Under the pieces are notes generated by a model. That model did not search any database. It saw only the letters and a program-made list of their open reading frames with translations, and was not told the origin of the DNA. From Cyanophora paradoxa CCMP329 (taxonomy: Eukaryota; Plantae; Glaucophyta), in NCBI GenBank assembly GCA_004431415.1, contig QPMI01000400.1:1-64000 (forward strand): a stretch of DNA of 64,000 nucleotides, read 5' to 3'. Each line of letters begins with the position of its first letter. The first letter of the stretch is position 1. The translations under genes and the position numbers were made by a program. Below, piece by piece: positions 1-26,312 of this stretch.

Positions 1-221
1 GATGCATCATTCCGAAATCTCGAAAAATCGATAATCGGCATCTTCAAACGCTTGTATCTCATCACCAGATCCATCAAAACGCAACGTTCTGCATATCGCT
101 GTGAAGCGCTTGAAAAGATCTACAAACAATGTGTATATCATATGCATATATGTATATCATCATACATATATTGGAAAAAACGATTTTCGCCTAGCAAACT
201 AGCTAGTTTTGGTCCTTTCTC

Positions 222-1574
222 TTATGTTCTTTGAGGTTTAGGGGCTGTATATGACTCCTTAGTAGTCTGAAAGTCACTATACCATCTCTGGCTATTCACT
301 TCTGAAAGTTTCTGTGTCCCTGCTATAGTGAGCTTTTTTGAGTTCCCTGTTAACTTTCCCAGCCTTCTCCTTTCTAGCCTCTATCAAAGGCTTATCTGGA
401 CTTCATTAGCAGTTCTATGCCTTCTCTCCTTATAGCAGCATCAACCTTGGCTTCCTCTTTGGCTTGCTCTAATGCATCCACTGTAGGTGTTTTCCAGATA
501 TCAAACTGAATTCACAGGTAACAGCTCATGGAAGCAAACCTGTTTTCTATGATCTCACCAGTGGGACTCCTTAGCTTAACTTAAAGCCTTCCCTACTATC
601 AACAGTGTAAACCATCCTAGACCAATTGTTACCCTGTTTAGCAAAGGCATTTTTCTCAACTTTCACTCTAACAAACATGCCTGGCTGCATGGTATCAAGG
701 TAAGCTATTGATTTCTTGAATCTTTTCATCTTCTAATCCCACTATATACCTATAATGCTCCTCTGTAGTTTCGCCTGGCTTCATCTTAGTAGCTGAGTGA
801 ACTGTATTATTGTAATTATACTCAATATCTCCTAACACATCAAAGAATCTAGCTGTGTTATTGGCTATGCAGTAGTTTGTGATCAATCTCTTAATCTGCT
901 TGTTAAAGGCTTCAATTCGACCTTGGCTTCTATGGTCAGCAGTTCCACTCACTTGGTGTTCTATGAATTTACTAGATAAATACTCCTGGAATATTCGATT
1001 TTGGAACTCACTCCCAGCATCTGATTGAACTTTTACTATGGTCTTGCTACTCTCATCTCAAGCTGTTTAAATGCAGCTAATGTAGTGAGAGCTGATTTAT
1101 CCCTTATAGGTATGATATACCCAGTTCTCAGTGTTGATTCCATTGCAGTCATAAATGTATCATAGCCATTGTTTTGTTTCTTATAAGCTGGGAAAAAGAG
1201 CAAATCAATCACATAGGTATCAAGGGGTTGCCTATTGACCATGGGATCTCTCTTCCTAGATATAGCAGGTGCATGATCTGAACTACCTCTTGCTTTTATA
1301 GAACTCTTGCAACTGCTTATAGGATTCATCTGGTAACTCACCCTCATAGCTTGAAGCCCTTTGTAACCAGTTCTCACATCATAGAATCTCTTGGCAATCT
1401 TACTGGTTTCTTTCACTGCAATAGCAACTGGGATCTCTACTGGGACAAGCTCTTTCATCTCAGACTTTTTAACAATTCGAGATTCCCCTTTTCTTCCTTT
1501 GGAACTGTGATGGGCAGTAGGTTACCTTGCAGTTGCTCAGTGGTTCTCCTAACTATTCTTCCAGTTGCTGGCAT
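222..1574 (-). CDS. Retroviral-like (rve, DDE) integrase, frameshifted in this assembly
   Basis: Joined ORF pieces give YVIDLL...QSDAGSEF...QGRIEAFNKQIK...YNNTVHSATKMKP, the Polinton-type DDE core; start ATG at 1574, 3' end approximate. Confidence 0.85.
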
Positions 1575-1577
1575 CTC

Positions 1578-4526
1578 TTAATTAAAAGGAACAGAATTAA
1601 TACCATCTGGTAAGATGTATCTCTTTGCATCAAAGCAGTTTAGGGCAACCCTTCTACTCACAGTATCTATTATTGTGTGATCTGCCCTTCTCTTCTGCTT
1701 TGCAGTCACAGTCTTGCTGATACCTGCAAATAAACACTCCTTAAAATCATTGAATTGGAGTTCCTCAGTGAAGTCCCAGATAGCTTACTTCTCTCAATCT
1801 CAGCTGTCTGAAACTGTAAACTTTGGCTCTCAGACCCACATACTCCAATATAGCAGAACCTGCATCTCATTTTTGTATTACCTGGGTCATTCTTGAATCA
1901 CTCCAAGTCCAAAGAATAAGCAATATTCTCTATATCTTTTGCAATGGTCTTAATTCATATATAGACAGAAGGAGTCAGTATCATGGAATAGTAACTTGGC
2001 TTTGGACCATTGGGACCTCACAGTATCATAGAAGAACTTGTAGTTATGCAGTTTGGCAGCATCCAAAACATAAGCCCCAATAGCAACTGGCTTATCTAGT
2101 TTCACATGCTTTGTGTAAAACTCAAATGCAACTGCCCTTTCACCTATGGGACTTGTTGATTTCACTAAAGGAGAGGCTGCATATTTCATAAATAGCTTCT
2201 CAGTGTTGGCAATCTTAACCACAGATCTACCTCTACATGATTCAATGCATTTCCCATAGATTGAATTATTCATGAGTTTATAGAAATCAGCCTCGAATTT
2301 ATTCACTGCTTTCCTTCTCATCTCAGTATTCAGCTCAATGTAGGGTTTCATTACAGGAGCCACAGTAAATGAGAGGACCCTGTGGACTTTACTCAATTTC
2401 ACCCCTTTGTCCAACAGATACTGTAGAAGAGGCTCAGAAATCACATAGTTTGTCACAGAACCAAAGGTTGCAGTTAGCTTAGGGTCTTATCAAGCTCTTC
2501 TCCTGAAAGATCCAACAGGCTCTTGATATTGTGATAATTCCGCATATTCTACTATTTTCTTGTTAATAATTAGGGGAAATCACTGTGGTCTAGATATAGC
2601 CTTATTGGGTATTTCCAGATCAACTTCCAGGAAACTGGATCTGTTATCTTGTGGTTGAATTCGGTCTCCCATCTAAAATCACCAACTGGAATGGCTGACT
2701 CAAACAGTAGCCATACAAGTTGTTAGCATCAAACAGCATAATGTGGATTCTCACCATCAGCCTCAGCATACCTACAAGCATTGTGCAAAGCCACCCTGAT
2801 TCCCTCTCACAAATTCGTATTGCTCTACAATCACTTATAAGCTCTATTTTTGCCTCGGTGGTCCTAAGCATAGCATCCAAGATAACCCAGGTGCAGATAC
2901 ATAATGAACTGGGTCAAGTCCATATACTGAGTGTGAAAGCCTTCTGAAGGCTTGGAATTTGTTCATTAACTCATCTACATCAGCAGCTCCAAAATCCATG
3001 AAATTGCTTGCATCAATGAACTTGTAAAGACCCCATTGCAATGAAAGGTATTGATCAAAGTTTTTCGAAAGGATTTCGATTCGCTTTTTATCACCATGCC
3101 TGCTATTTTTCTGAAAATGAATGTCCCACAGTCATCCATTTGGTCAACAACCACTGCTACTTTTGTTTGCTTGAGATTCTCCTATGGAGATTGCAGTTTC
3201 TGCATGCAGGAGCAATATAATGACCTGTGTGGTGATCATGATCCTGCATTTGAAGTTCTCTTTGGTGAACCTCTCACTGCAAAGGTAACAGTGTTTAGTA
3301 GCCTTGTAAATTGCTTTCTGCTCATCTGTGAGTTCATTCATGGAATATTGGTAAACAGGAAGTCAATTAGCTCTCTTGCTTTGGATTCCAAGCATTCAAA
3401 CAGACCTCCCATTGGATCCTGCCCCTCAAATCGAAACTCCTGAACATCTGCCCCAGTGACTATTCTTATGTTGACTGCTGAGACTTCTCTCTTGGATTTT
3501 GATGCATCAATGGGGATGCTTCTATGTTCAATCTTGCAGTATACCACAACAGGAAGCCACACAGTTTTCCTGAGGTTTTTCAGTCCAAACTCTATGGTGG
3601 TCTCAGGTTTAGGTGTGATTCCCTTTGAGAGTCTCCAATCAATGCATCTGTTTGAGTCCACATGAGCAGTGAGTTTAGCCTCAGACCTGAATCGAGATAA
3701 ACATGTATCACAGTAGTGTAACTTTTGATCCTTGGTTTTATCAAGGGCAACTCTGAGAAGTCTTGAAAGGGACATGATTGTAATATAGTGACCATTCCCT
3801 TCATCATCATGAATGAGCATGAGATTAACCTTTTGCTTTCTACCTGGGTTACTGGATTGATGTAGGGGATATATAACATCTCGATCCATTCCAAATATGT
3901 TTATGCTGATGCCTGCATTTTGAGATTCGAATTTATCAATGATAGCAGCCACCAGTTGGAGCATAACTCATAATAGCCACTCTGAGCATTTCGATTCTCT
4001 CAAGTCGATAGCTATCAACAACATTCATCTGTTCCTGACACATTTGGGCTGCTTTATTCAGCTCAGTTCGAATATTTCTCGATTTGGTTAATACAAAATA
4101 ATCACTGTAAATGTATTTCGATATCCAAACCTGTGGATTGCTGACTTTAACGAACTTGCAGATAAAAGATAAGCGAACTTTGATTGCCCTGAATTGATAT
4201 AGACTGTCTCTTAAACGTTTTGGAAGAGAGGTTGCAATTCTATCTAAATATTCAATCACATCTACCACAACTTCCCTTCTGGCTCTGTATGTGAGCCAGC
4301 GATATAATTCATTCATGGCTGTTCCATCTTCTGCCTCTGGTTCTATTTGCCTCAGGCGATCGAGTTCATCAAGAGTCTCAACTTTGTCATAGAGGTTATT
4401 GGCTTTTCTGGTTAATTTTGCTAAAGTGGGTCTGCCCCTTGAAATAAATCCGATTTCCCGGTCATATTCAGCCTCTGTGATTTCATGGCTGCATACAGTG
4501 TTCCCAGTAATCCCATGAGTTCCCAT
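1578..4526 (-). CDS. Protein-primed family B DNA polymerase (pPolB), multiple frameshifts
   Basis: Fragments carry FDANNLYG (motif A), KLMNNSIYGK (motif B), HDTDS (motif C), YGLDPVHYVSAPGLSW, CYLC Zn-finger insert, and C-terminal VALNCFDAKRYILPDGINSVPFN*. Confidence 0.88.
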
Positions 4527-4597
4527 TTCTTCTCTCTAATGAGTCTGTTGCTAATTCGGGCATAGTTCCTAACTTGTTCCTACTCTCAATAAATATT

Positions 4598-4915
4598 TTA
4601 TTCTGAGATGTTCTGAACGCGATTTTCTAGTTTCTTTCGCAATTTGGCTTTGTAATGCATTGGATTATGTGATCCATTTTTTGTCCATATATTTGGGTTT
4701 TTTTGATACTGTTTATATGCCTGAATTAAGTTTTTCTCTGTTTGTAATCGCATACAATCAATTTCCTTGGAAGAAAGCTGTGACATTTGATATCCATCAC
4801 ATTTGCTTTGGCATTTGATGATTTTGTCTATAAGAGCTGGTATATCCTTCAAATCATCTTTTTCGAAATGTTTGTTTTCAATCATTGAACTCATTCTGGT
4901 AGTCCAGTTTGCCAT
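4598..4915 (-). CDS. Hypothetical viral protein
   Basis: 105-aa ATG ORF with AT-rich upstream region; no recognisable motif. Confidence 0.5.
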   Translation of the reverse strand: MANWTTRMSSMIENKHFEKDDLKDIPALIDKIIKCQSKCDGYQMSQLSSKEIDCMRLQTEKNLIQAYKQYQKNPNIWTKNGSHNPMHYKAKLRKKLENRVQNISE

Positions 4916-4956
4916 TTTGTACTGTTTACTATTATAAGAATGTATTTGTTTTAAAT

Positions 4957-5119
4957 CCTCAGGCAGAATTCGATTGTCAGGCAGCTGATTCAGCTAACAT
5001 TAAGAAACTCTGTCACTTTTTGCAAGTCAGTGTTCGCAAAAACAATGAAACCATGAACTTATAAAAGTTAAATAGAAAGGTGCCTGACAGTGCCTGACAG
5101 TGCCTGACAGTGCCTGACA
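4957..5119 (-). repeat. Iteron module copy 1 (4x TGCCTGACA at 10-bp spacing, plus 2 opposed copies)
   Basis: TGCCTGACA at 5081, 5091, 5101, 5111; TGTCAGGCA at 4975 and a degenerate copy at 4957. Confidence 0.85.
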
Positions 5120-5125
5120 AGCTCT

Positions 5126-7519
5126 TTAACAATCATCATCATCCTCATCAATAAACTCTCTTGTATTTTCCGAAATCAGTTTTACACACTTGTAACCTCT
5201 ATCATATACTTTTGAAGTCGCTTTTCTTACTGCATATTTGTCATATTTGGCTCCCAACATCTCCATTACTCTCTTTACCCTGCTTGCAGACATATTTAGT
5301 TTCAAAGCTTTTAACTCCTCATCTACAGTTTTGCTTGACAGAGAATCAGAATGATTTCCTGTAAACTCAAATCTGCTTTTAAGTATTTGAATTTCATCAC
5401 CTGCATCCTCCCTGAAAGCAGCAGTATCATTTGCCACCTTGCCACATATCTGGACTTTGTGGGATTTGTATGCTTGGAATACTGACCATTGGAAAGCATG
5501 AATGATTTCAGGGCGTTTAAGCAGATCACTTTTAATATCTTCAGAAGCCAATCTATAGCATGGGAGCTTCATTTCATCCATTGTTTTCTGATCCACAAAC
5601 TTGTGGGGATGCTGAAAGAAAACAAGAGTCTCAAGTGTATCAGATGGAGAAACAGGGGGCATATCATTCATGATCATCCAGAGTCTACTTTGGAGTCTTA
5701 TATTTTGCTCATTTCCATAGAGAATTCGAATGCATTGAATATCACCACCAGATTCTTTCTTTTTTATCATATTTCCATTTATCTTGATACTTGGATTTGA
5801 TACATCAAACTTCATTTCTTGGGTAAATGTTAAACGGCGAAATTCACATGGTTTCATCCATTTAAGCTTTTTAGCCTCATCAGAATCTGAATGTTTGTCC
5901 ATTAGAAAGGATTCTCCACCAATAGTGTTAACATACCCACTGCCCCAAGTGTTCTCATTAAGATTGACATAAACTCCTTTTCCACAATTGCGCTCCCCTG
6001 ATGATAGTCCCCATTGTTTATCCTCTACTTTGCCTGCCATTGCTCTTGCTGTAAATTCGAGAGCAGTATTAATTGCATCTGCTCCAAACACAGGTTCAAG
6101 TATGTTTTCGTAGAGGATTTTTATATGCTCTTCTGACGGCTTGACTACATATCCTTGATCATCTACAAGTAAATCTCTTTCAATTCGAGTAGTGGAATAT
6201 ACGTTTTGACACTCTGCCCAAGGAGTAAGCTTTTTGGTTTCGAAATCATACACACCATTTTTATAACACAATTTTCCAAGAGATGAAGACCAAAGGACAT
6301 TATTCACAAACTCACTATCATTTGGCAGAAGAGCTTTTGTAGCTTTGATAACTTTTTGAGCGCCTGTTATATTTGCGGTATACTCTGTTAGACCTGTTAG
6401 ACCCTCATGATATATCTTTGCTTGGAGGCATTTTTTTAGGAACACATTTTCCACTTGATTGGCTTCCTCAGTCCAAAGGTTCTCATCTGTTTTGACAAAT
6501 ATACGTCCATTGGATTGCTTGACATCATTTTTGATATCTTCAGCAAACAGAGTAGCAGCCTCATAATCTGTAGAGCAAATTCGAAAATCGTTTGCTTTCA
6601 GAGTAGCAGCATCTGGAAGCTCGAAACCCTGATCCATAGGTTTAACAACTAAGCCTAACTTGTATCCTGTGGACTGCTGGATATAGTTCTCTGCATCTTT
6701 AAGAATATCAGAAAGTTTCTCCAGTGATAGATTAGGTGACTTTTCAATCATGCAGCCATCAAATACAAGAACACCAACAGTGAGCTTAATTGAAGTTAAA
6801 TACTCACACAAAGCCATAAGAGCAATATTCTCAATCTGACAAAGAACCATGTTAACAGTAGAACCTAACACATTGTAGCCCTTCTTTCGCTTGCAAATAG
6901 CAAGGAAGTTAGTATTTTCTTTTAATTCAGCAATAGAAGCATGAATACCACCGATTTCTTGTTTAACCTTTTTAAAAGCCATTTCTTTGTGTAAATCGGG
7001 ACACTCAATGCCTCCTCCTCCGTTTATCACAGATAAGAAGGCACACTTAATTTCTTCACGAGTAAGATCACACTTTTTGCTTAAATCACTAACGATTTTA
7101 TCTCGATTGGCAACAAACTCAGCAAGGAAATCACAATTAATGTCATTTTTTTGGCAATACTGGACAAGTATCGATGGATGAGCATTTTTCATATCAATAT
7201 CATAATACAAATCCCTTGCTAAGGTGTGTCTAAATTCCCGAGGCATACTCTGCATGCTTGCTTTTTTGTTTTTGATGTGTGAGAGAGTAGTGAAATATCT
7301 TCCAGTATGGTGTTTGCATTGATAGTATTTAACTTGAATGGTCCCATTTGAATGCAAGTCCTTCATATATTTCTTGAGGAGAGTCAAAGTAGCAGTAGAA
7401 TCCACATCTGGTCTATAACTCAAACCCTCGAAATTATCGATTAAATACTTAAGAGTAGAGCGAGATACTTTTTCAATAAGAGTGATATCGAGATTGTTGG
7501 GTTTCTTTGAGCTAAACAT
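5126..7519 (-). CDS. TVpol (PolA-related primase-polymerase) fused to D5-like SF3 helicase
   Basis: Intact 797 aa; GRYF, YDIDMKNAHPSIL (motif A), LVFDGCM (motif C); Walker A GERNCGKG, Walker B LTFTQE, motif C MIMN. Confidence 0.85.
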   Translation of the reverse strand: MFSSKKPNNLDITLIEKVSRSTLKYLIDNFEGLSYRPDVDSTATLTLLKKYMKDLHSNGTIQVKYYQCKHHTGRYFTTLSHIKNKKASMQSMPREFRHTLARDLYYDIDMKNAHPSILVQYCQKNDINCDFLAEFVANRDKIVSDLSKKCDLTREEIKCAFLSVINGGGGIECPDLHKEMAFKKVKQEIGGIHASIAELKENTNFLAICKRKKGYNVLGSTVNMVLCQIENIALMALCEYLTSIKLTVGVLVFDGCMIEKSPNLSLEKLSDILKDAENYIQQSTGYKLGLVVKPMDQGFELPDAATLKANDFRICSTDYEAATLFAEDIKNDVKQSNGRIFVKTDENLWTEEANQVENVFLKKCLQAKIYHEGLTGLTEYTANITGAQKVIKATKALLPNDSEFVNNVLWSSSLGKLCYKNGVYDFETKKLTPWAECQNVYSTTRIERDLLVDDQGYVVKPSEEHIKILYENILEPVFGADAINTALEFTARAMAGKVEDKQWGLSSGERNCGKGVYVNLNENTWGSGYVNTIGGESFLMDKHSDSDEAKKLKWMKPCEFRRLTFTQEMKFDVSNPSIKINGNMIKKKESGGDIQCIRILYGNEQNIRLQSRLWMIMNDMPPVSPSDTLETLVFFQHPHKFVDQKTMDEMKLPCYRLASEDIKSDLLKRPEIIHAFQWSVFQAYKSHKVQICGKVANDTAAFREDAGDEIQILKSRFEFTGNHSDSLSSKTVDEELKALKLNMSASRVKRVMEMLGAKYDKYAVRKATSKVYDRGYKCVKLISENTREFIDEDDDDC

Positions 7520-7694
7520 TTTTCTTGAACGTTTCTATATTAAGCAGATAAAATATTTTATCTGAAAATCCTTGTCATTTTTTGTTGTCAAACCTTTAAG
7601 TCCTTTTGGGTTGACTTCGAATTATATCGATAATTGGTAGTAGTGTATCAGTTTTGTTTATGAATTCCCCATAGAAAAATAATGAACCGGCATA

Positions 7695-7925
7695 TCAGTA
7701 TTTCCGAGGACGACCTACAGGTCGACCTTCAGGGAAATTCGGGTCCATTGTGAGTTGCTTTTTATAGTAGTAATAGGCTAATGCCCTGTTGCGGCGAATT
7801 TCACGATATTCCGCATCCTCTTCATATCTTTTATTATAATAAATTTGGTTTGAGATCTTTTTCTTCATTGCAGAAGAGATCTTTTCAAAACTTTTGCTAT
7901 CAGTTACAGTTTGATCAGTATCCAT
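7695..7925 (-). CDS. Small basic protein with C-terminal AT-hook-like motif
   Basis: RYEEDAEYREIRRNRALAYYY...GRPVGRPRKY; paralog of 8691-8936. Confidence 0.65.
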   Translation of the reverse strand: MDTDQTVTDSKSFEKISSAMKKKISNQIYYNKRYEEDAEYREIRRNRALAYYYYKKQLTMDPNFPEGRPVGRPRKY

Positions 7926-8056
7926 TTGGGTATCTCTTAACTATAACCGAGAAAAATGTTTTGTCAGAAAACAATATGCTTGATTTCCTTAAGTAGTTTA
8001 TGAGTTGTCATTTTTTGGTAACAGAGATAATTCCTATACTGTTACCATTAATGGTT

Positions 8057-8240
8057 TGTCAGGCACTTACAATTTATTGTCAGGCACTATTATGGTATAT
8101 CAGGCATTGTCAGGCACCTTTTTAGAAAACTTTTCTATAATACAAATTTCATTGTTGATCCAAGCAATGACATTGAGAATTTTGAAACGTTTGTGAAACT
8201 CGATGTGTTTTCTGCCTGACAAACGTTTTTCTGCCTGACA
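8057..8240 (+). repeat. Iteron module copy 2
   Basis: TGTCAGGCA at 8057, 8078, 8098 (TATCAGGCA), 8108; opposed TGCCTGACA at 8213, 8232. Confidence 0.85.
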
Positions 8241-8313
8241 ACCTTTCGTCAACAAAAAATGATTGTATAAACTGACTTAAAGATTTATCAGATATATTAA
8301 TAAGAGAACAACA

Positions 8314-8613
8314 ATGGCTGCTCAAATTGCCAAAGGAATTCTAGCCGAAAAGATTGAAAAAGATATCCTCTGGAAAGATCATAAAGGATTAGTTGATGCT
8401 ATTGTAGAGAGTGGTCTCCACTCGACAGGAATAAACATTGGTCAGGCTGATAATAAGCGAAACAAGGAATTTCGACAGAAAGTAGAGAGAGATGTATTGG
8501 GCATGATAATTGACCCAAACTACCTCTCCACAATTAACAAAAAAACTCATTCAAACACTGCCACAAGAAAACGACTCTATAACAAATTAATGAGTCGTTC
8601 TACTTCCTCTTAA
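8314..8613 (+). CDS. Hypothetical viral protein
   Basis: 99-aa ATG ORF preceded by ATATATTAATAAGAG. Confidence 0.55.
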   Translation: MAAQIAKGILAEKIEKDILWKDHKGLVDAIVESGLHSTGINIGQADNKRNKEFRQKVERDVLGMIIDPNYLSTINKKTHSNTATRKRLYNKLMSRSTSS

Positions 8614-8690: not shown

Positions 8691-8936
8691 TTATAGACCT
8701 GGGGGTCCATTGCTACTTTCAGTAGGCAAATAATATTTAATCGGTCTCCCTCTTGGTCTCTGCTCCTCTTTTTGGGCTTTTCTGCGATAATAGGATGCCA
8801 GGGCTTGCTGCTTTTTATACTCTCTATATGCTGGGTCCTCTCTATATCGTTTCTGCATTGCTAGAATGTGTCTAATAGAACCCTCAGTAACAGGTTCATC
8901 ACTGGTAAACTCGATTAAACTAATAGTGTCCTCCAT
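8691..8936 (-). CDS. Small basic protein with AT-hook-like motif
   Basis: RYREDPAYREYKKQQALASYYRRK...RPRGRPIKY. Confidence 0.65.
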   Translation of the reverse strand: MEDTISLIEFTSDEPVTEGSIRHILAMQKRYREDPAYREYKKQQALASYYRRKAQKEEQRPRGRPIKYYLPTESSNGPPGL

Positions 8937-9983: not shown

Positions 9984-10765
9984 TTATAAACCGCGTTTAT
10001 ATCGCATCAATTTATTGCTATGGACTTGGCTTTTCACTTCTTTTGGGGCTTCCTCTTTCTCTGGTGGTTTCAGTTCATCTTCTTTCTTTTTTGGCTTTCT
10101 GTGGAAGCGAGGAAATGGGAAGTCTTTGACAAGCTCAGCTTTATCTACAAAGTATTTAACAGAGTAGCCAGCAGAGGACCAAACGATATACTGATAGGAG
10201 TGGACATACTCTTCAAACATTTTGTAAAAGTCCTCCTTGTTTCGCATTATATTGTATTCTTCCTCTATGGCTTCAAGTTCTTTGCGATTAGCAGCACTCA
10301 GGAAAACAGCATAATCAGAATTAACTCGAATAGTCGAAGAGACTTTTCTTAGCTTTTGTGTGATGCAGATAATGGATATTTTCGAGTGTCTGCCCCTACT
10401 GTACAGAGATGACACCACCTTGTCTCTGGTTAAATCAATTATCTCATTATCAATTAAATCATCTAAAACAACACACATGTGGTTCACAGGTTCACCTTTT
10501 TCGATTTTCTCCTGCCTTTCATCCAAAAGCTTTGAAATGTAACCAGCATCCCATTTACCAAGTTCTACTGTTGCAACCTCTCTCCAGAAATGATTAAAGC
10601 TGGTCCCACTCACAACTAGGACAACATCAATAACTTTGGCATCATGTAATTGCTTTAACCAATACTTTACACATTCGCTTTTTCCCGTACAACTTTTGCC
10701 TATAAAATGGCTCTGAAAACACCTTTTATCATTTCAGAAACATTAAACTCTTCTAAATCTTGCAT
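9984..10765 (-). CDS. A32/FtsK-HerA family DNA packaging ATPase
   Basis: Walker A IGKSCTGKS upstream in frame, Walker B VVLDD, SRGRHSKISIICITQ, IRVNSDY; start MQDLEEF needs +1 T near 10705. Confidence 0.9.
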
Positions 10766-13252: not shown

Positions 13253-13281
13253 TCTTCTTTTATCTATATTCATATATTAAA

Positions 13282-15802: not shown

Positions 15803-18800
15803 ATGAGCTTCAATTACCCACCAAATCTAGAAACCATTCAAGATGATAATGCAAGCAGCACCAAGCATGTGAACTTTGATAATATTAAAGTAAAGGGTTC
15901 AGTTTCAATTGACCACAGCTCTGATAATTCATCAAAGACTCAATCAAGGGAGCATGCTTTATCTGTGAATCAAACCGATCCAGATAAGGAGGAAGTCAGT
16001 GTAGCTTTTAGCTTGGGTAATGTGAAAGCAAACCAAGTGGCAGAGATCAAAGCAACAAGAAGGAGACCTAGGAAACTAAAAACCAGTGGCACTCATCCAG
16101 ATATACCTTCCAGGTTTGATAGTGGTCGTTTGGTTTTCAATGTTCAAGATGAGCAGGGCAAACAGAACACAGCTTTGCGAATTTACAATGAGGGCAGCAC
16201 TGCAAAAGCTGAGGTCCCCAAGTATTGCAAGTGGGTCCCATTGCCAACACAAATCAGGTCTCCTACACAAATGATGTCTACCCAAAGGATATTACATATG
16301 ACTTTGCAAGGAATGAGCCTTTTGGGTTCTTTACTCCAAAAGATGTCCATCAAAAAAGCCATCAATTACAATCAACAGTAGCCCCAGTCAACCAGTAGCA
16401 ATCCATTTACATCCTGATTTAGTCGAAATGGATAGGCACCTTTTGCCTTTGTATAGCAATGTGAAAGACCTTGGAATTCGAACCAGGCAATGGCGAAATA
16501 TCCATGGCAGTAATGTGTATGCAAATGGTGAGAAGCTTGTAAGTGAGAAGACCATAAGAGAGATCTTTGAGTATTATGGACCTGTCCCAGTTCCCTTCCC
16601 TCTTCCATGGGATCCACCGGATTTAACACCAAAGAAGCAGCCTGGAAGAGAATACACAGCAACTGAAGATGTAGCCTTTGGGCAGCATATTGTTAGTTGG
16701 GAGCAAGTTCGCAATAAACCGATAATTGAACCCAGAAAGCAAATAGATGAGCAGTATTTACCTCCTGAAGTCGATATTTTAGAGCTTGATGAATATCAAT
16801 TCGTTCCAGATGAGGAGGAGTATTTACCAGATGGTTTTGACCCACAAGAATATGAATATGATCAGTATGACCCCAATGAGGAGGAGATACTACCAGATGG
16901 CTTAGATCCTCAAGAGTATGAGTATGAGCAGAACTATGAACCCCATGAGGAGTATTTAGCAGATGGACATGATCCACCAGCTGTTGATTATGAGCAACCT
17001 TATGAACCCCATGAGGAATTATTACCAGATGGATTTCGACCTGAGATCTGGGAGTTCTTTCCTGATTATGAACAAATTAATAATAAACCTGCAAAGTATC
17101 CCCCAGAGGATCACAATCATGATTGGGATGAGATCTTAGGCAAACCTCAAAAGTATCCACCAGAGGATCACAGGCATGATTGGGGTGAAATTGATGGGAT
17201 ACCTACTGAGTTCCCACCAAGCAAACATGAACATATTTGGGATGAGATCAATGACCAACCAGAATTTGCAAAGGTAGAGCCTCTTGATAACTTGGGGGTT
17301 TCTCTTTACCAGACTTGCAATGTCCCTGAAAGAATCTTTTTGAATGAACACTATGTACATGTGAATGGGACACTTGCGAATTCAGCTATGAGAGGACCAC
17401 TTCATATTAGGACATTACCAGGCTCTTATGAAACCCCACCACCACCAGGAGCAACCATACCAAATATCTTTGTGTCAAGCTACATGGAGGCTGACATTCC
17501 CACAGATACATTCAGAGTCCCAACAGACCCAGCAACCTACCAAAATTACAACTCTGCTATACAGGTTCATGTAGCAGATGTAAGCAGCTTAGATGGCTCA
17601 AGACCAATGATAGTATTCAGTCGAGATAAATATTCCTACATTCCCATAGTGGGAACTGCAAATGATAACTATGGGAGGGCAGAGCTTGCATGGATTAAAA
17701 CAAACTATGGTGGGGTTCTGGAAGCCAATCAGAGGATGGCTGCAAAGAATATTCACAATGAGACTATTTCGAGAGTGGTCACAGAGGATTACCTAACGGC
17801 TGTAATTCTCGTTAATTTCGTAACTCTTGCGATGCTTGGAAATTATGTAACAAAACCTGAACTTGCGGTGGAATTATCAAAATATCTCCCGCTTGTTGGT
17901 GGGACAATCACAGGAGATCTTACGGTTAATAGTAATATTTACAGTAGCAACATAGAGACCAGCAACCTAAAAGTGAATGGAATTCTTACGGTTGGTTCAT
18001 GTAATTTTAATACCATAAATCAACTTTACAGAGAATGGTATGATGTCCCAGCAAGCTTTGATCCAGCATTAAATATCTCAAATTGCATTTTTGCTTGGAA
18101 GGCATCAGGACAACCAGGTCAATCAGCAATGTTTACAACTATAATAAGTAGAGTCCCAAATTCAGTTGTTCCAGACATGTTTATCTCCGGAGCCAGTTCC
18201 TATTACACCAATCCCGAAATCAACAACCAAATTAGTGTTTCAAGCCCAACAGGTACTTTTTATGCATATACCTCAGCTACAAGGACTATTGATTTTTCAA
18301 ATGGGCTTACATTTTTCTTTGTGGGAAAATATCATCCAACAACCTCTTCTATGCAAGTTCATTTGAGACTTTACAGAAGCGCCTCTCCATCACGATATTG
18401 TTATTATGGGGCAACATCTTCTACCGCTATTGGAATGAATCAGTTTACTATTAATGGAGTATCCCAAACCCGCCCAGTTATTACGGTTCCTTCTTTAATA
18501 AATACATGGTATTACACTGACCAAACAATTACTCCCAACAGCTACACAGTCGGGTTAAATGGAGTAGATATTCAAACACTTGTAGGAACGAATTATCTAC
18601 CAGATAATACTGTCAATCATTTCGGATTTGGTAATATTGTGAATGGTGGTATTTCCGAGTTGATTGTTTTCAATAGGGCTTTGACAACTTCTGAAAAGAA
18701 TGCTGTGAGGTATTACATTCAACAAAAATATGGATTCACTCATACCCAGACTCTGAATATTTACAGAGGATTAAAAATAACCTCACCTGATACTGTAATA

Positions 18801-21800
18801 GATTACCTTACAGTTACAAGCAATGCAAATTTACCACATCATCCAACCTCTAATGTGGTTCAAGGTTGGATTCAAAATCACACTCACACAAAAGCCCAGA
18901 TTACAGATTTTGCCCATACTCACACAAAAGACCAAATAACAGATTTCGCCCATACTCACACAAAAGACCAAATAACAGATTTCGCCCATACTCACACAAA
19001 GACCAAATAACAGATTTCGCCCATACTCACACAAAAGCGCAAATCACAGATTTTGCCCATACTCACACCAAAGATCAGATCACAGATTTCGCCCATACTC
19101 ATTTATGGGAGCATATCACAAATCCTCCATTAACCTTCCCACCTGATTCACACACTCATGATTACTCAACAATAACCAATAGCAACCACAGACACCCTTG
19201 GAGCGAAATAGACGAAAAACCACGTTTTGCATCGACAGGTGATTTAGTAAATGGTGACGGATTTTATGGGGTCAGTTTCTACCAAAGTGATACCATCGCT
19301 GAAAGATTACAATTAAGTGAATACTATTTACACCGAAAAGGAATTGAAGCAGGCACCACAATGGAAGGAGAATTATACATTAAACAACCAACAAGAACAA
19401 CATTAGTAGCAGCAGGTGGCGATGCATTAATAGACACCAAACCGGGTATTTATCTTACAAGTTACTATAATGCGGATATCCGTTAACAACAGGATTACCA
19501 CCGCTACCATCTGATCCAGTGGGTTATAGTCATAAAGACGCCATTTTACAAGTAAACGTTACAGATGTAAGCGCAACTGATGGTTCACGTCCAAAAATTA
19601 TATTTAGTCGCTCGAAATTCAATTACGTCCCACTTGTGGGACAACCATATGATGATCATGGTAAATGTGAGATGGCGTGGATTAAAACGACAACAGGTGG
19701 CGCCTTAGAAGTTAATCAGAGAATGGCGGCGAAAAACTTACACAATGAGACCCTTTCAGGTGTTGTAACAGATGATTACATGCAAAGCAAAAAATATGTA
19801 GATGATACACATACTCACACCAAAGATCAAATCACAGATTTTGCCCATACTCACACCAAAGATCAGATCACAGATTTCGCCCATTCTCATTTATGGGAGC
19901 ATATCACAAATCCTCCATTAACCTTTCCTCCGGATTCACACACTCACGATTACTTGCCTCTCACAGGAGGAACAATTTCATCAAATCTTACGATTTCATC
20001 CAATTTGAATGTTTTAGGAAAAATTCAAATTGGAGACAAAAATACAAACATTGATGTATACTATGATGCACCCTATTATCCTGTTACTTCTAATACAGAC
20101 CCTGCTTCTACCATACCAAATTGCCTCTTAACAATAAGATTAGATGGTGTCCCTGTTGGAATAAACATCAGTCATGCCTTCATTGCAAATAGAGCAACTT
20201 TGGCGAGTCCCTTTATTTCCGGAGTTACCTTTCCATGGTGTGGATTCAACACAATAACTCAATTGAGATCTGATTACAATAACCGAAACATTGCACAACA
20301 ACCTACTTATTCATATACAAGCCGGGAATTTGGGATGCCGTATCCCGTAACTGTGGATTGGTCAAAAGGTATCACCATCTTCTTTGCAGGTTCTTATAGA
20401 TTTTGGGGACCGTGGGTAGATCTCTTAAATTTTAGTTCACCAGATGGAACTAATAAAGTATCCTTTGGGACAACAGGTAGCAGTATGGGTATACATTCTT
20501 ATACAAGCAATGGTGTGACTTACCCAGCAGCACACTTAAATTATCCCACATCGTATTCTGAGTTGTCGCCGAATCATTGGGACTTTACAGTTTCTTCAAA
20601 TGTCTGCACTTTCGGATTTAACGGACAAGATTTAGGCACAGTCATTACAGAAGTGGATTATCTTCCACCTTCCACTTTTAGTAGGATGGGTGTTGCCTAT
20701 TTCATTACGGCAGTAGGGGAATATATTATATTCAACAGAGCATTGACATTTGATGAAAGGCAAAAAGTGAGATATTATATGCAAGATTATTTTGGCTTTC
20801 CAAAAAAGCAAACAATCGTTATTCCTGATAATCTACGCATTTCTGCTGAAAATGTTCATATTAGAAATTTAATCGTTTCTTCAAATGCAAGCATTCCAAA
20901 CTATACCACATCAAATGTGGTTCAAGGTTGGATACAGAACCACACACCTGCGTGGTCAAATATCACAGACAAACCGTTAACGTTTGCTCCTGATGCTCAT
21001 TCTCATGCATGGACAACCATTACAGGTAAACCATTAACCTTTGCTCCTGATGCTCACACTCACACAAAGTCTCAAATAACAGACTTCGCCCACAATCATT
21101 TATGGGCGGACATCACAGACAAACCGTTAGCGTTCACTCCTACTACTCACACTCACACAAAGTCTCAAATTACTGATTTTGCCCACACTCATTTATGGGC
21201 GGACATCACAGACAAACCATTAACATTTGCACCTGCTGCTCACTCTCATTTATGGGCGGACATCACAGACAAACCATTAACATTTGCACCTGCTGCTCAT
21301 ACTCATGATTGGATAGGTATTACAAATAAACCTTTGCTGTTTCCGCCCGATGCTCATACACACCCTTGGATTAGTATAACAGAAAAACCATTAACATTTC
21401 CGGCAACAGCTCACACTCATTTATGGAATGATATTACAGACAAACCAACATTTGCAACTGTTGCGACAACCGGAAATTATGATGATTTAATTAACAAGCC
21501 AACATACACAGCGCCCACAAATTTTGACGCTACAAGTATTATTTCCACAGATCGCACAGGTGATTGGAGAAATTACAACGGAGGAATATTGACAGGGGAC
21601 ACAAATACTTGGGCGAACACATGGGCTGCTTCTGATGAAGATTGTAGTAGCTGTAAAATGTATTGGAATGTCCCAACAGGAATGAAATCTTGTTATATCT
21701 ATTATGCTTGTCATTACAATTGTAGATACTTTGATGTGGTGGGAATTTATCCTCCAACAACTGTGTATACATATTTACGAGTAAATGCCTATTCTACTGC

Positions 21801-22659
21801 AATCGACCCATCAAAGGAATTCAAACAGTATGTTGGAATAAATTGTGAAGGACTAACCAAAGTTGGTGTTCATGGACAGAAAGGAAGAATTTATTTACCC
21901 GGTCCAATTGCTGTTGGATGGAGCAAAAACCCTGCTGTAACTTCACACAGTGGTTACTGTCATTGGGATAATATCTTCGGAAAACCAACAGCTTCAACAT
22001 CTGTCGGTCCTCACTCACACAGCAAAGCAGATATCACAGATTTTGCACATACTCACACAAAGGCAAATATTACAGATTTTGCCCATACTCACACTAAATC
22101 AGAAATCTCAGATTTGCCTTCTTTTGATCCATTCACAGCCAATACGATCACAGCAAATAATACTATGTATGTAGGATCGGGTTCAATAGTAACTCCTGCA
22201 TCACCCACAAACCAAGAAACATGGTTCTTCCACAATTCCGCAAACTTTTATGATAAAACACTGCTCTGTCGTGGAAATGCTTATGCAAGAGCATTTTATG
22301 CGATGAATGCAGGAACCACAAACACAATCAGCCAAGTTCCATCTTGGTATGATATAGAAAGACGTTTCAAATCAGGAAAATATCAAGCCACAAGTGGTGT
22401 TATAAGCGCGGGTCAAACAACACAGCATGCATATGTTTTATATTGGGACCCACCTTTTTACACTCAGACACCTGTTGTAAATGCCACACTTCAAGGAACT
22501 CCTGCAACAAACCCAGGGGATATAGATTTTAGAATTGGAATCTCAAACTCCACAGCTAACTACACAACAATCTATGTGACATTCATAGCATCCCCTACTC
22601 TATCTGAAAGTCGAAGTATTACTTGCACAATCCATTGGACAGCATATGGAATCCCATAA
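15803..22659 (+). CDS. Giant modular fibre/spike protein (~2,280 aa if ~4 frameshifts are repaired)
   Basis: ORFs 15803, 16428, 18866 and 19519 read through each other after single-base fixes; HTHTKxQITDFA phage-tail repeats; two LamG/ConA-like domains ending E(L/Y)I(V/I)FNRALT. Confidence 0.72.
16780..17075 (+). repeat. Acidic ~20-21-aa coding repeat (EEYLPDGFDPQEYEY-like, 4-5 copies)
   Basis: Visible in both translation and DNA. Confidence 0.75.
18880..19165 (+). repeat. 36-bp tandem repeat encoding HTHTK(A/D)QITDFA
   Basis: About six tandem units; related copies at 19807-19953, 21055-21190 and 22012-22110. Confidence 0.9.
20940..21450 (+). repeat. 57-bp coding repeat HxHxWxxITxKPLTFAPxA
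   Basis: About seven degenerate units interleaved with 36-bp units. Confidence 0.85.
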
Positions 22660-22708: not shown

Positions 22709-23575
22709 ATGGGTGAATATAATCGAGTTCAACTGCCTATATATTCCCTTGGATCCCCTGCAATGCATTTTCGCCAGCATGAAGTAAATGATGAGGTTCG
22801 TGGTTTAGAATCCACAGAGAGACCCAATTCCAATGGTAACTCCTTTGATAAAAATTCGATTATTCGAGTAAAAGAGCTGAGAGCTGATAAGAATTCTGGT
22901 GTGGTTAAAACAACTCGACTTCTTGTCACCAATGCTAACTTCTTCCAGCCTACAAATGGAGGTCCTGATGCTTACAGTGTTGCCCTGAAAGCCCTAGATT
23001 TCGACAAGAATACTGCTGCTGTTACTGTGAGATCAGGAGGAGCATTTATTGGGGGTGGCTGTCGAATTTCAGGTCAGCTTTCATCCTCAATTTCGTATAA
23101 TGATGTCCCAGATACTCTAGAGCAAAATGTAGAAGACCCCCAACGAATTCGATTATATACTCCTGTTGCACAGCAGCCATTAATTCAATTTTACATTGGA
23201 TATACTGTTACTCTTGAAAACTCGGAATTAATTGAAGGAACCAAAAGAGTACTGAGAGGTCTTGCGATTCCATCTGCAATGCTTTCCCTTTGTAGAGCCA
23301 ACAACAATCAAGTAGGTCATAAATACTATTTCAATGTTCAGGGATACAATCATTTCGGTTATGGCTACTGTGTTTATAATAATAATTTCACCTTTGACTT
23401 GTTTGTTACAGATATTGGGTTATATACTATAACTCTTATCGGTTTGAGAACAGATATAGCCGCTGTATCAGCTCTTAGAGGTGTAACTCCTGATACTCTT
23501 TCAGTTACAGGGTTTTACATGGAGCCAGATGTAATTGATGACCCAACCCATAAAAGATATATCCCTTTAATGTAA
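22709..23575 (+). CDS. Fibre-like/virion protein, paralog A
   Basis: Shares ELRxDKNxGxVKTTxLLVTNANF and SGGA(F/Y)IG with the next ORF. Confidence 0.65.
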   Translation: MGEYNRVQLPIYSLGSPAMHFRQHEVNDEVRGLESTERPNSNGNSFDKNSIIRVKELRADKNSGVVKTTRLLVTNANFFQPTNGGPDAYSVALKALDFDKNTAAVTVRSGGAFIGGGCRISGQLSSSISYNDVPDTLEQNVEDPQRIRLYTPVAQQPLIQFYIGYTVTLENSELIEGTKRVLRGLAIPSAMLSLCRANNNQVGHKYYFNVQGYNHFGYGYCVYNNNFTFDLFVTDIGLYTITLIGLRTDIAAVSALRGVTPDTLSVTGFYMEPDVIDDPTHKRYIPLM

Positions 23576-23576
23576 A

Positions 23577-24410
23577 ATGGCTGAGCAACCCCCACTTGAA
23601 CGAATTATTACACCTCAGCTTTCATTAGCTGCACCAGCAAACCATGTTCTGCAGCATGCTACTTTTGATGATGTTGAGGGTCTCCAATCCACAGAGGTCC
23701 AACCTACAATGAATACATTTGGTTCCACCCACAAGCTGAGATTACAGGAACTCAGATGTGATAAAAATAATGGAATAGTTAAGACAACTAAGCTACTTGT
23801 CACAAATGCAAACTTTTCTGCTCATTATGGAGACCCAGATAGCTATGGAGATCCTCTGTCTACTTATTCTTTTGAATCTAGGTCGGGAGCTATTAACTGC
23901 AAATCGGGGGGAGCTTATATTGGTGATGGTCTTAGGGTTGGTGGGGCTGTTGGAGCGCCTTTATTTGTGAATGATCAACCCAATCCCATTGATCCCAACA
24001 CAAGAATTCGAACCTATGTCCCCAGCATGAATGCCCCCTATATAATCAAGATATTCCCCATTGTTGTGAATGAACAAACAGCAGTAGTAGACTCTCTTGT
24101 TGAGATTGGTGATCACTACAAGGTTGTTGTGGATATCCCACCAGATGTTTATGCTGTATGCCAAGTTGAAGGTGGAACTCCCAACTTTGCAGTAGTGATC
24201 ACCCCATATGATAATTTCGGAATTGCTTATCATGGAGTCAATTTCGGTTTGGAAGACTATCAGTTCTTAGTGAGAGCCACCAAGTTTGGTATCTACAAGT
24301 GTGTATTATATGCTGAGAGAACCGATTTTATTGCAAAGCAGAATACCTATGCTGAATACTATGGGACAAATCGATATTTCCCCATTTTTGGGCAGGATAC
24401 TGCTCCATAA
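23577..24410 (+). CDS. Fibre-like/virion protein, paralog B
   Basis: Tandem paralog 1 bp downstream; C-terminal VITPYDNFG...YAERTD. Confidence 0.65.
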   Translation: MAEQPPLERIITPQLSLAAPANHVLQHATFDDVEGLQSTEVQPTMNTFGSTHKLRLQELRCDKNNGIVKTTKLLVTNANFSAHYGDPDSYGDPLSTYSFESRSGAINCKSGGAYIGDGLRVGGAVGAPLFVNDQPNPIDPNTRIRTYVPSMNAPYIIKIFPIVVNEQTAVVDSLVEIGDHYKVVVDIPPDVYAVCQVEGGTPNFAVVITPYDNFGIAYHGVNFGLEDYQFLVRATKFGIYKCVLYAERTDFIAKQNTYAEYYGTNRYFPIFGQDTAP

Positions 24411-24432
24411 GAATATTGGTTATATATAGAGT

Positions 24433-24705
24433 ATGGATAGTAAAACAAAAAAGTTTATTGATGCTGCTATGACAGTTCATGGTAAAGATAAATTCGATTA
24501 CAGTGAGACACATTACATCAAAGCTCAAGAGAAAGTATCTGTTAGATGTTTGCAGTGTAATAAAGTGATCCTTACCTATCCCTTTAATCATGTGAAGGGA
24601 TCAGGTTGCAGGGAATGCAACAAAAAACATTCTCAGGCTTACAGGAAAAGGGCTACTTCATCAATCAAAGTAGAGTACAGGGATATTTGCATTAGGTTCG
24701 ATTAG
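24433..24705 (+). CDS. Small Zn-finger protein (DUF723/homing-endonuclease-associated type repeat)
   Basis: FIDAAMTVHGKDKFDYS...CLQC...NHVKGSGCREC. Confidence 0.7.
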   Translation: MDSKTKKFIDAAMTVHGKDKFDYSETHYIKAQEKVSVRCLQCNKVILTYPFNHVKGSGCRECNKKHSQAYRKRATSSIKVEYRDICIRFD

Positions 24706-24734
24706 GATTAATTAATTTTTCTAAGGTATTCTTA

Positions 24735-25133
24735 ATGGAGACTAAATACAGAGGCTTTCATGTTATGCTTGATTACAAGGCTAAATCAGCTATTGCAACA
24801 GGACATGAGCATGTTAGCTTCCTAGGTAATTGGATTATGGGAACCCTTGAACAAGCAATATTGAGACAAGGTATTAGGATTGTTCATAAACACTGTGAGA
24901 TATTTGATGGCAAACTATCACCTCCTGGTTTTGCTTTGGTTCTGCTATTAGATGAAAGCCATTGTACAGCTCATTGTTATTCCAATGAAGGCATGTTAGC
25001 AATTGATATATTCAGTTGTGGTAAAGAAGCTCAGCATAAAACACAATCAGTAGCAGATGAGATCGATAAAACAATGAATTTCTTAACATTTGAGAAGACT
25101 GAGAGACATAAACATGATAGATTCCCGTTTTGA
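24735..25133 (+). CDS. speD: Prokaryotic-type S-adenosylmethionine decarboxylase proenzyme
   Basis: 132 aa; GFHVMLD, PPGFALVLLLDESHCTAHCY (E|S pyruvoyl cleavage site), AIDIFSCG. Confidence 0.85.
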   Translation: METKYRGFHVMLDYKAKSAIATGHEHVSFLGNWIMGTLEQAILRQGIRIVHKHCEIFDGKLSPPGFALVLLLDESHCTAHCYSNEGMLAIDIFSCGKEAQHKTQSVADEIDKTMNFLTFEKTERHKHDRFPF

Positions 25134-25594
25134 TGGGTTTCTATAATGAATTTCTAAAGGATTCCTTTGTTTTCTAACAATAACATTGATAAGCTACTGT
25201 AACAAAAAGATATAATATATCCTTTCACTACAGTAGCTTTATACAATGATTATTTTCCGGATTCCGGACATTTTTTACGATAGAATTCTATTGTAAGTAA
25301 TTGGAATAATGTTCGATTTCATTACAGTAAAACTCAACATTCCCCTTGATTCCCCCTATTATATAATATTTATATTAAAGTGGACTCAAGGTTGACTCAT
25401 ATTAATCGTAAAAGTAGTAATAGTATATGGATTTTGTTACGAATTCAATGCAAGGGTTGACTAAGTGGGTTGAGTTGACTCAAATTTCACAGGAAATAAC
25501 AATGAATCAGAGTATAAAATGCATTTTTTGAATCAACTACACCAACTAACACTGAGAAAGTAGGTTATAACATATAGTATTACCATATATGGTT

Positions 25595-25777
25595 TGTCAG
25601 GCACTATAATATAGTTGTCAGGCACTAATATAGTATGTCAGGCATTGTCAGGCACCTTTTTAGAAAACTTTTATAAAATTGAAATTTCATTGTTAATCCA
25701 AACAATGACTTAGCCAAAATAAAATACTTTATGAAAATCGATAGATTAAATGCCTGACAAATAAATGCTGCCTGAAA
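25595..25777 (+). repeat. Iteron module copy 3
   Basis: TGTCAGGCA at 25595, 25616, 25636, 25646; opposed copies at 25751 and 25769 (degenerate); spacer homologous to copy 2. Confidence 0.85.
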
Positions 25778-26029
25778 GATTATACATAACATTTCTAAGG
25801 GTCCCCCCTTAGACTCAACAAAACAATGATAATAACATATCAATTTCATGTATAATTACGATTGAATTCAATAAGAGATCGATTTGTTTTATTTAACAAA
25901 TGAATCTTTTATGGATCTTAATCGAGTTTAGCGATATGTTTCCGATTAAATGAATTAAATTTAATTAAATTTAATCGAGAAAGTACATGAATATAATATC
26001 GATTAAATCAATTAACTTTTAGACCAATC

Positions 26030-26312
26030 ACACATAGTAAAATGCGGAGTTTTAACCAGAGGCAAGATCTAATTGAGATTCAGTTATATTATTCGGAAAC
26101 ATATACAGATTATCGATTCACTCAGTAAGACTAATCGGAAAATAAGAGAAATTTACGATAAAATATCGAAAAGAATACAAAATAATCGAAATAATTGAAT
26201 ATTCGATAAGATATACACAGATTATCGATTGATTGAAATAGAATATACGAGATATATCAACAAAATCAATTAAGATAAGCCGAGGGTTAAAACTCCGCAT
26301 TTTACTATGTGT
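26030..26312. repeat. 28-bp perfect inverted repeat at element terminus
   Basis: ACACATAGTAAAATGCGGAGTTTTAACC (26030-26057) is the reverse complement of 26285-26312; imperfect extension inwards. Confidence 0.9.

What the first reader, a model, noticed from the sequence alone, without database searches (positions are those of the whole stretch)
1..26312. Endogenous Polinton-like virus in a probable glaucophyte-type alga, carrying two different replicases
Seen: pPolB + rve integrase (the Polinton/Maverick module) and an intact TVpol-SF3 helicase sit beside a PLV capsid module (ATPase, MCP, pentons, lipase); no adenain-like protease is visible in the window. Established: individual PLVs usually rely on one replicase type. 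Inference: a chimeric or nested virus, possibly an undescribed lineage.
Basis: partly seen in the sequence, partly recalled or inferred. Interest (0 to 1): 0.85.

Follow-up and report, generated by a model that had tools for sequence, protein, structure and literature searches.

The report
Algal provirus with swapped-in primase-helicase
This is one copy of an already catalogued family of small DNA viruses integrated in a likely glaucophyte alga; beside its usual protein-primed polymerase it carries a rarer primase-helicase cassette that was likely swapped into a variable gene slot, a kind of double replication kit already reported in related viruses.

Summary
Bases 1-26312 are an AT-rich Polinton-like provirus with rve integrase, pPolB, an intact TVpol-SF3 helicase, A32 ATPase, a double-jelly-roll capsid gene, patatin lipase, fibres and AdoMetDC, and no protease in view. 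The penton call is inconclusive.

The novelty does not hold. The capsid belongs to a Cyanophora paradoxa family tabulated in 2023 (366 capsid genes) and 2025 (156 elements with the same gene inventory, 6 with TVpol). Two-replicase elements are described in two 2026 preprints.

Read-derived contigs give the anatomy. pPolB-rve and capsid genes lie at equal, high depth (ratio 0.8-1.1, 4 of 4 runs). A 4-kb TVpol cassette (about 4595-8600) lies 26-56 times lower. TVpol differences between copies are 19 of 20 synonymous. Repeat boxes flank TVpol and recur near the terminus.

Best reading: pPolB is native, and a functional primase-helicase cassette with a likely origin fills a swappable slot in a minority of copies. 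This is not a nested virus or a new lineage. The scan already noted such helicase-matched boxes and two-replicase mosaics on other DNA of this genome.

The parts
1..26312 (.). Integrated Polinton-like virus, right part; left end outside the window
500..1521 (-). rve integrase in shifted frames; D, D, E motifs near 1215, 1024, 919; 3' end approximate
1580..4526 (-). Protein-primed PolB with EndoVII-like motif, several frame changes, catalytic motifs present; start approximate
4595..8600 (.). Low-depth replication cassette; borders good to about 50 bases, close to gene ends
4598..4915 (-). 105-aa orphan ORF directly downstream of box 1
4959..5120 (-). Repeat box 1: four TGTCAGGCA words one way, one exact word the other way; points away from TVpol; likely origin or regulatory site
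5126..7519 (-). Intact TVpol (PolA-type primase-polymerase) fused to D5-like SF3 helicase, 797 aa
7695..7925 (-). 76-aa ORF with an AT-hook-like end (Pfam E 0.22), paralogue of 8691-8936
8035..8240 (+). Repeat box 2, 81% identical to box 3 over 190 bases, inverted relative to box 1
8314..8613 (+). 99-aa orphan ORF directly downstream of box 2
8691..8936 (-). 81-aa AT-hook-like ORF at the edge of the high-depth backbone, 43% identical to the cassette copy
9984..10757 (-). A32-type packaging ATPase, frame change near the 5' end
10825..12189 (-). Major capsid protein in four frame pieces; double jelly roll shown for its 54-62% identical homologue
12243..13276 (-). Candidate penton 1, one frame change; label from a recalled motif pattern
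   Evidence: inconclusive
13283..14213 (+). Candidate penton 2; label from a recalled motif pattern, no library hit
14203..15759 (-). Patatin-like phospholipase fused to F5/8 (discoidin) domain
16317..19486 (+). Fibre-like gene 1 with phage-tail repeats, frame change near 19000
19471..22659 (+). Fibre-like gene 2 with phage-tail repeats
22709..24410 (+). Two paralogous orphan ORFs (288 and 277 aa, 34% identical)
24433..24705 (+). 90-aa zinc-finger piece like those of HNH endonucleases
24735..25133 (+). S-adenosylmethionine decarboxylase
25573..25790 (+). Repeat box 3 in the non-coding end region; lower depth than its flanks
26030..26312 (.). Terminal 283 bases closed by a perfect 28-base inverted repeat (26030-26057 and 26285-26312)

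Best explanation
This is one integrated copy of a high-copy Polinton-like virus family of a likely Cyanophora-type alga, whose native replication kit is likely pPolB plus rve integrase, and whose variable helicase slot holds, in a minority of copies, a 4-kb TVpol-SF3 cassette that likely works as an origin-binding primase-helicase. Shown: gene content, equal depth of pPolB-rve and capsid modules, much lower depth of the cassette, mostly synonymous divergence of TVpol, three repeat boxes. Inferred: rve integrates the linear genome; pPolB copies it from protein-primed ends; the cassette entered by recombination close to gene ends; its helicase binds the TGTCAGGCA boxes, one of which sits near the terminus, and unwinds or primes there. 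The two-enzyme state is then an accessory helicase-primase or a stage of replicase turnover. The breaks in pPolB, rve and capsid are one-base frame changes absent from many sister copies, so 'broken pPolB, intact TVpol' is not evidence of replacement.
For: Median summed depth pPolB-rve/capsid 0.80-1.09, pPolB-rve/cassette 28-45 and capsid/cassette 26-56 in 4 of 4 runs. Single TVpol contigs lie at 5.2-7.5 times host single-copy depth in 3 of 4 runs, 17 in the fourth. The published table has TVpol-S3H in 6 of 156 Glaucocystophyceae elements, beside PIF1 34, D5_N 40, PriCT_2 15, Prim-Pol 8. 19 of 20 listed TVpol differences are synonymous against 0.21 expected. Low-depth contigs carrying 8-15 differences from the window reach both borders (4565-4911, 8268-8627), so other copies likely share the arrangement. 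The window holds 14 exact copies of the 9-letter word, all in the three boxes. pPolB catalytic motifs are all present. Repeats bracketing one replicase, and inverted repeats as origins for primase-helicases, are proposed in print.
Against: The tool states that summed contig depth is no copy number, and AT-rich DNA may be covered more deeply than the GC-rich host. No listed contig spans from inside pPolB into TVpol, and none joins across the cassette, so what most copies hold in the slot was not seen. Only 40 of 301 substitution rows and 12 of 65 indel rows were shown. The boxes are only 70-81% alike, and the word did not turn up with TVpol in environmental viruses (0 of 18 word loci, none of 149 TVpol loci with two copies). 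No binding or expression data. A pPolB with a primase-helicase was called uncommon and 0 of 149 TVpol loci had PolB.
Confidence: 0.6

Rival explanations
1. The cassette is a selfish, capsid-less mini-replicon: TVpol between two outward-facing boxes copies itself and rides in the virus without serving it.
For: Boxes 1 and 2 bracket TVpol in inverted orientation. Close TVpol relatives lie in unlike settings: a virophage-type genome (L001), a 234-kb viral contig (L015) and tandem pairs (L082, L083). Autonomous mobility of PolA and AEP replicases is proposed in print.
Against: The low-depth region extends 350-400 bases beyond the boxes to gene ends. No integrase lies in it and the boxes are only about 76% alike. 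A third box sits in the virus's own end. Every TVpol piece listed was laid on this stretch, so copies outside viruses were neither seen nor excluded.
Confidence: 0.18
2. TVpol has replaced pPolB in this copy, and the pPolB gene is a decaying relic.
For: TVpol is one open frame while pPolB needs several frame changes. CpG depletion is strongest over rve and pPolB (o/e 0.10-0.21 against 0.39).
Against: Capsid, ATPase, rve and penton candidates are broken in the same way, and contigs of sister copies differ by one base at such places. All pPolB catalytic motifs remain. TVpol normally pairs with tyrosine recombinase, not rve.
Confidence: 0.08
3. Two viruses lie in tandem or nested: a pPolB-rve element on the left and a TVpol capsid virus from about 4960 to 26312, with box 1 as a relic of its left terminal repeat.
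For: Box 1 is inverted relative to box 3. Tandem and nested elements are known and were noted elsewhere in this genome (e1-10595630, unchecked).
Against: Only 70% identity over 163 bases, with no match to the rest of the right end. Capsid genes share depth with pPolB-rve, not with TVpol. There is a single capsid module and TVpol has no integrase of its own.
Confidence: 0.08
4. The arrangement is an assembly chimera of family copies, or the virus-host junction is misassembled.
For: The family is high-copy and only about half of the sampled words of 2500-12400 are held by the best runs. No record spans the stretch. The junction contigs hold only 27 viral letters.
Against: Two runs give the same junction without differences at single-copy depth. 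Contigs from other copies cover both cassette borders.
Confidence: 0.06

Closest known systems
Cyanophora paradoxa endogenous PLVs (Bellas 2023, PMC10120064, dataset rows; Bulzu 2025, PMC12220804, Table S6 and passages)
   Same: The window MCP's only homologue is a C. paradoxa protein that the 2023 table lists as an HHpred-confirmed MCP (98.47%). A second listed MCP shares 69 of the first 82 residues, counted by eye. Inventory of 156 elements: A32 139, rve 85, lipase 89, AdoMetDC 66, PF03175 49, TVpol-S3H 6, protease 0. Patatin-discoidin fusion and phage-tail repeats are named in the text.
   Different: The tables give totals, not per-element pairings, so pPolB and TVpol in one element, the cassette borders and the boxes are not shown in what I read. 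Whether this copy is one of those listed was not determined.
Multi-replicase polisuviruses (Barth, Ha, Aylward, bioRxiv 10.64898/2026.10.13.758929)
   Same: Genomes with replicases of several classes, repeats bracketing one replication set apart from the capsid module, pPolB paired with DDE integrase, PolA or AEP acquired without an integrase; one example, EVE_QPMI01_83, carries the prefix that other papers' tables give to C. paradoxa.
   Different: That example is three elements with an AEP gene. Figures and supplements were not visible, so an exact pPolB plus PolA match can be neither confirmed nor excluded.
Halocafeteria seosinensis virophages and PLVs (bioRxiv 10.64898/2026.07.28.741278)
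   Same: Some elements carry two replication genes, read as transient states of replacement; terminal palindromes.
   Different: There the pairs are pPolB + D5 primase-helicase or D5 + PolA-S3H, in virophage capsids; here pPolB + PolA-S3H with a different capsid and a 28-base stem around a 227-base spacer.
TVpol-S3H of Sputnik V13, OLV25, PgVV (PMC2579912, PMC3671162, PMC4642659)
   Same: PolA-type domain with conserved Arg, two Asp and RxxxK, fused to a D5-like helicase.
   Different: There it is the only replication enzyme; here it accompanies pPolB and rve.
Maverick/Polintons (Polintoviricetes) and Mavirus
   Same: pPolB + rve + ATPase + double-jelly-roll capsid; Mavirus also has an S3H helicase.
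   Different: No protease seen; the family's capsids fall in unnamed clusters, with zero in the Mavpol, Mavirus and virophage columns.

Membership tests
Polinton-like viruses, broad sense (Polisuviricotina) | Double-jelly-roll major capsid protein | tested here: met
   Shown on the 54-62% identical homologue P0029: Foldseek E 5e-19 to PBCV-1 Vp54
Polinton-like viruses, broad sense (Polisuviricotina) | A32 packaging ATPase | tested here: met
   Pfam PF04665 E 1e-9
Polinton-like viruses, broad sense (Polisuviricotina) | Single-jelly-roll penton | tested here: inconclusive
Polinton-like viruses, broad sense (Polisuviricotina) | Terminal inverted repeats and target-site duplication | not testable with these tools
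   Left end is outside the window and no genome is held
Cyanophora paradoxa endogenous PLV family | Capsid of the family's own clusters | tested here: met
   54-62% to P0029, a listed family MCP; 69 of 82 N-terminal residues with another, by eye; which of the two clusters was not determined
Cyanophora paradoxa endogenous PLV family | Gene inventory (ATPase, rve, lipase, AdoMetDC, no protease) and high copy number | tested here: met
   single contigs at 2310-3550 against host 52 in run X4
Maverick/Polintons (Polintoviricetes) | pPolB and rve integrase | tested here: met
Maverick/Polintons (Polintoviricetes) | Adenain-like maturation protease | tested here: not met
   None among 29 ORFs in the window; 0 of 156 in the family table; left end unseen
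Maverick/Polintons (Polintoviricetes) | Mavpol-type capsid | not tested
   No named reference set here; the published row has zero in the Mavpol columns
Aquintoviricetes (PgVV/TVS-type PLV) | PgVV- or TVS-type capsid | not tested
   Published row has zero in the PgVV columns; 2 of 156 hit the MCP-POL models; no tree built
Virophages (Virophaviricetes) | Virophage-type capsid and cysteine protease | tested here: not met
   Sputnik MCP ranks 45th, E 7e-12, TM 0.49, below giant-virus capsids; no protease
TVpol-S3H | Hairpin Arg, two catalytic Asp, RxxxK in the fingers | tested here: met
   GRYF, DIDMKN, REEIK and VFDG in the window protein (definition); RxxxK is not kept in all seven homologues
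TVpol-S3H | C-terminal D5-like SF3 helicase | tested here: met
   PHROG primase E 4e-9 over residues 385-722; Walker A and B, motif C
TVpol-S3H | Primase or polymerase activity | not testable with these tools
   Predicted; shown only for the related CCPol-MP pair

The most novel reading that the evidence does not exclude
The virus is a dual-mode replicon: protein-primed copying from the ends by pPolB, plus origin-dependent copying started by TVpol-S3H at iteron boxes that travel with the cassette and are also written into the virus end. The boxes would be a mapped, testable origin for a eukaryotic TVpol, an enzyme class that a 2020 passage calls biochemically uncharacterised apart from CCPol. 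No listed paper of two searches held 'iteron' with polinton or virophage (10 of 230 listed), but inverted repeats as origins are already proposed.
Probability: 0.25. Interest if true: 0.65.

Novelty: new member of a known kind. Interest (0 to 1): 0.35.

Why it matters
As a lineage it adds little: the family and the two-replicase state are in print. Its use is as a clean test case. A culturable alga likely holds about half a dozen TVpol-bearing copies among a hundred or so sisters, the TVpol evolves under purifying selection, and a candidate binding site lies beside it. That makes two open questions testable: how small eukaryotic DNA viruses exchange replication modules, and what TVpol-S3H does and where it starts. 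The family's capsid is also very isolated (5 other representatives among 1.84 billion, one of them a repeat-driven false hit) and awaits classification.

Tried and rejected
No genome was held, so the left end, terminal repeat and target-site duplication could not be read. Folding the capsid homologue alone failed (pLDDT 34); an 8-row alignment worked. A capsid profile found nothing in PDB by sequence, nor did the TVpol profile. No relatives in viral contigs for the ATPase or two capsid homologues. The box word in viral contigs gave 18 loci, mostly tailed-phage-like, none with TVpol or pPolB. The two orphan ORFs next to boxes 1 and 2 are not detectably related (E 0.32). The two penton candidates are not detectably related; one query was out of frame and is void. 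No Rfam match in 1-27000. No RNA holder listed. All 13 indel places checked touch runs of 2-6 equal bases, but short runs are common, so this is weak support for consensus error; contigs drop rare variants, so error and copy-specific mutation cannot be told apart. The PolB survey used a one-clade profile plus motif patterns on partial loci (84 of 149 at 10 kb or more) and could miss divergent enzymes. One paper opened by a wrong id was irrelevant.
Full report
Observation. The first 26312 bases are 29-43% GC per kb and gene-dense; the rest is 58-88% GC with intron-rich eukaryotic genes such as ZIP4, V-ATPase A, PP2C and Mgm101. From left to right the block holds rve integrase, pPolB, an intact 797-aa TVpol-S3H, A32 ATPase, capsid, two penton candidates, patatin-discoidin, two fibres, two paralogous orphans, a zinc-finger piece and AdoMetDC. 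No protease was found in 29 ORFs. rve, pPolB, ATPase, capsid, penton candidates and one fibre are split by frame changes. The capsid's intact homologue P0029 (54-62%) folds as a double jelly roll. The window's own capsid was not folded whole. The penton label is recalled and unconfirmed.

Host and family. P0029 is a Cyanophora paradoxa protein in EukProt. The 2023 PNAS dataset lists the same protein as an HHpred-confirmed capsid, lists a closer one (69 of 82 N-terminal residues, by eye), and counts 366 capsid genes in two unnamed clusters (272 and 94). The 2025 Microbiome table gives 156 Glaucocystophyceae elements with A32 139, rve 85, lipase 89, AdoMetDC 66, PF03175 49, TVpol-S3H 6 and no protease, and its text names the patatin-discoidin fusion. 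A 2021 passage also mentions adintovirus-like proteins in C. paradoxa contigs. The host call rests on these viral genes; no host gene was placed in a tree. CpG is depleted in the element (o/e 0.10-0.55 over genes, about 1.0 in host DNA), which fits the repressive CpG methylation reported for this alga; that link is inferred.

Anatomy from reads. Contigs of four DNA runs were laid on 1-13300 and 22600-29600. Median summed depth was 9,200-20,100 over rve-pPolB, 8,400-25,000 over the capsid module and 270-565 over TVpol. The first two agree within 0.80-1.09 in 4 of 4 runs. The tool warns that summed depth is no copy number, so single contigs were also compared: in run X4, host 52, TVpol 243-360, backbone 2,310-3,550. 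TVpol contigs lie at 5.2-7.5 times host depth in three runs and 17 in the fourth, in line with 6 of 156 in the table; GC bias may inflate these. Low-depth contigs begin at 4565-4622 and end at 8578-8627, close to gene ends, so the foreign part is a 4-kb cassette. These contigs differ from the window by 2-4%, so other copies likely carry it. No listed contig runs from inside pPolB into TVpol, and none joins across the cassette; tables were cut. Of the 20 listed differences in TVpol, 19 are synonymous (0.21 expected); the neighbouring orphan shows 4 of 12. At several frame changes in pPolB, capsid and penton 1, sister contigs differ by one base (12 of 65 indel rows shown), so many copies likely have open genes. 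Whether this copy is damaged or miscalled cannot be told. The host junction is carried without differences by contigs of 2 of 4 runs, with 27 viral letters, below the tool's 31-letter rule.

Repeats. A box of about 200 bases with clustered TGTCAGGCA words in both orientations occurs three times: either side of TVpol, pointing outward, and near the right end. Copies are 70-81% alike. Boxes 1 and 2 each lie just upstream of a small ORF, so a promoter role is also possible. Box 3 has lower depth than its flanks and shows rearranged joints in some copies. The last 283 bases are closed by a perfect 28-base inverted repeat (z -9.3). An AT-hook-like gene occurs once in the cassette and once in the backbone (43%).

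Mechanism. Most likely the virus integrates with rve and replicates with pPolB, as Polintons are thought to. The slot between pPolB and the capsid module likely takes different helicases, given the mixed inventory (PIF1 34, D5_N 40, PriCT_2 15, Prim-Pol 8, TVpol 6). Here it holds TVpol-S3H with what are likely its binding sites. Origin-binding by the C-terminal part of D5-type helicases is recalled from phage P4 and was not tested. I put this at 0.6, a selfish mini-replicon at 0.18, replacement of a dead pPolB at 0.08, tandem viruses at 0.08 and chimera at 0.06.

Rarity and precedent. Among 149 environmental loci with TVpol relatives (80 best of 359 viral hits, 68 metagenome loci, one), none showed a PolB by profile or motif, and a 2013 passage calls the pairing uncommon. 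But a 2026 preprint describes genomes with several replicase classes and repeats bracketing one of them, another reports two replication genes in Halocafeteria elements, and a 2024 paper proposes inverted repeats as origins for primase-helicases. Earlier notes of this scan report helicase-matched repeat blocks and two-replicase mosaics on other pieces of this genome; I had found the boxes before reading them, and they are not independent support.

What I read. 10.64898/2026.10.13.758929: parts 1-4 of 5 of the text, no figures or supplements. PMC12220804: passages, supplement contents, Table S6 rows. PMC10120064: passages and supplement rows found by search. PMC10675990, PMC8502044, PMC3671162, PMC4642659, PMC12344493, PMC2579912, PMC7581432, PMC11296320, 10.64898/2026.06.19.733378 and 10.64898/2026.07.28.741278: passages only.

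Verdict. A real, correctly described provirus; a member of a catalogued family showing a described kind of module mosaicism. It is a PLV in the broad sense and works like a Polinton, but fails the protease test for Polintons proper. Interest 0.35.

Noticed in passing
window 26030-26312: Perfect 28-base inverted repeat around a 227-base AT-rich spacer with internal direct repeats; the end reads AC...GT rather than the TG...CA recalled for retroviral integrases, and the exact end is uncertain by about 2 bases.
   Followed up: partly
window 25527-25799: Contigs of two runs show joints between about 25781-25799 and 25527-25539, so box 3 is duplicated or inverted in some family copies.
   Followed up: no
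window 26313-26781: The flank looks like the end of an intron followed by two short exons of a + strand host gene, so the virus may sit inside a host gene; read by eye only.
   Followed up: no
window 500-3000 and 12500-17000: CpG almost absent (o/e 0.03-0.3 per kb) and the survivors are mostly TCGA; the non-coding right end has normal CpG.
   Followed up: partly
window 24735-25133: Viral S-adenosylmethionine decarboxylase, listed in 66 of 156 family members; a role in polyamine supply or in lowering methyl donor is untested.
   Followed up: partly
window 22709-24410: Two tandem orphan paralogues (34% identical) at high depth with no library hit.
   Followed up: partly
L082 6148-12316 and L083 2671-8839: Two TVpol-S3H genes in tandem with no capsid gene recognised nearby.
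   Followed up: no
L015 9869-12235: A TVpol-S3H 35% identical to the window's lies in a 234-kb viral contig, likely a giant virus.
   Followed up: no
L001 1619-11613: Virophage-like genome (capsid, penton, protease, ATPase, labels recalled from motifs) with a TVpol-S3H 30% identical to the window's.
   Followed up: partly
window 27800-64000: Host genes hit by Pfam: ZIP4/SPO22, V-ATPase A, DUF547, ankyrin, adenylate kinase with Dpy-30, PP2C, glutaredoxin, LRR, Mgm101 (91 of 348 candidate frames scanned).
   Followed up: no
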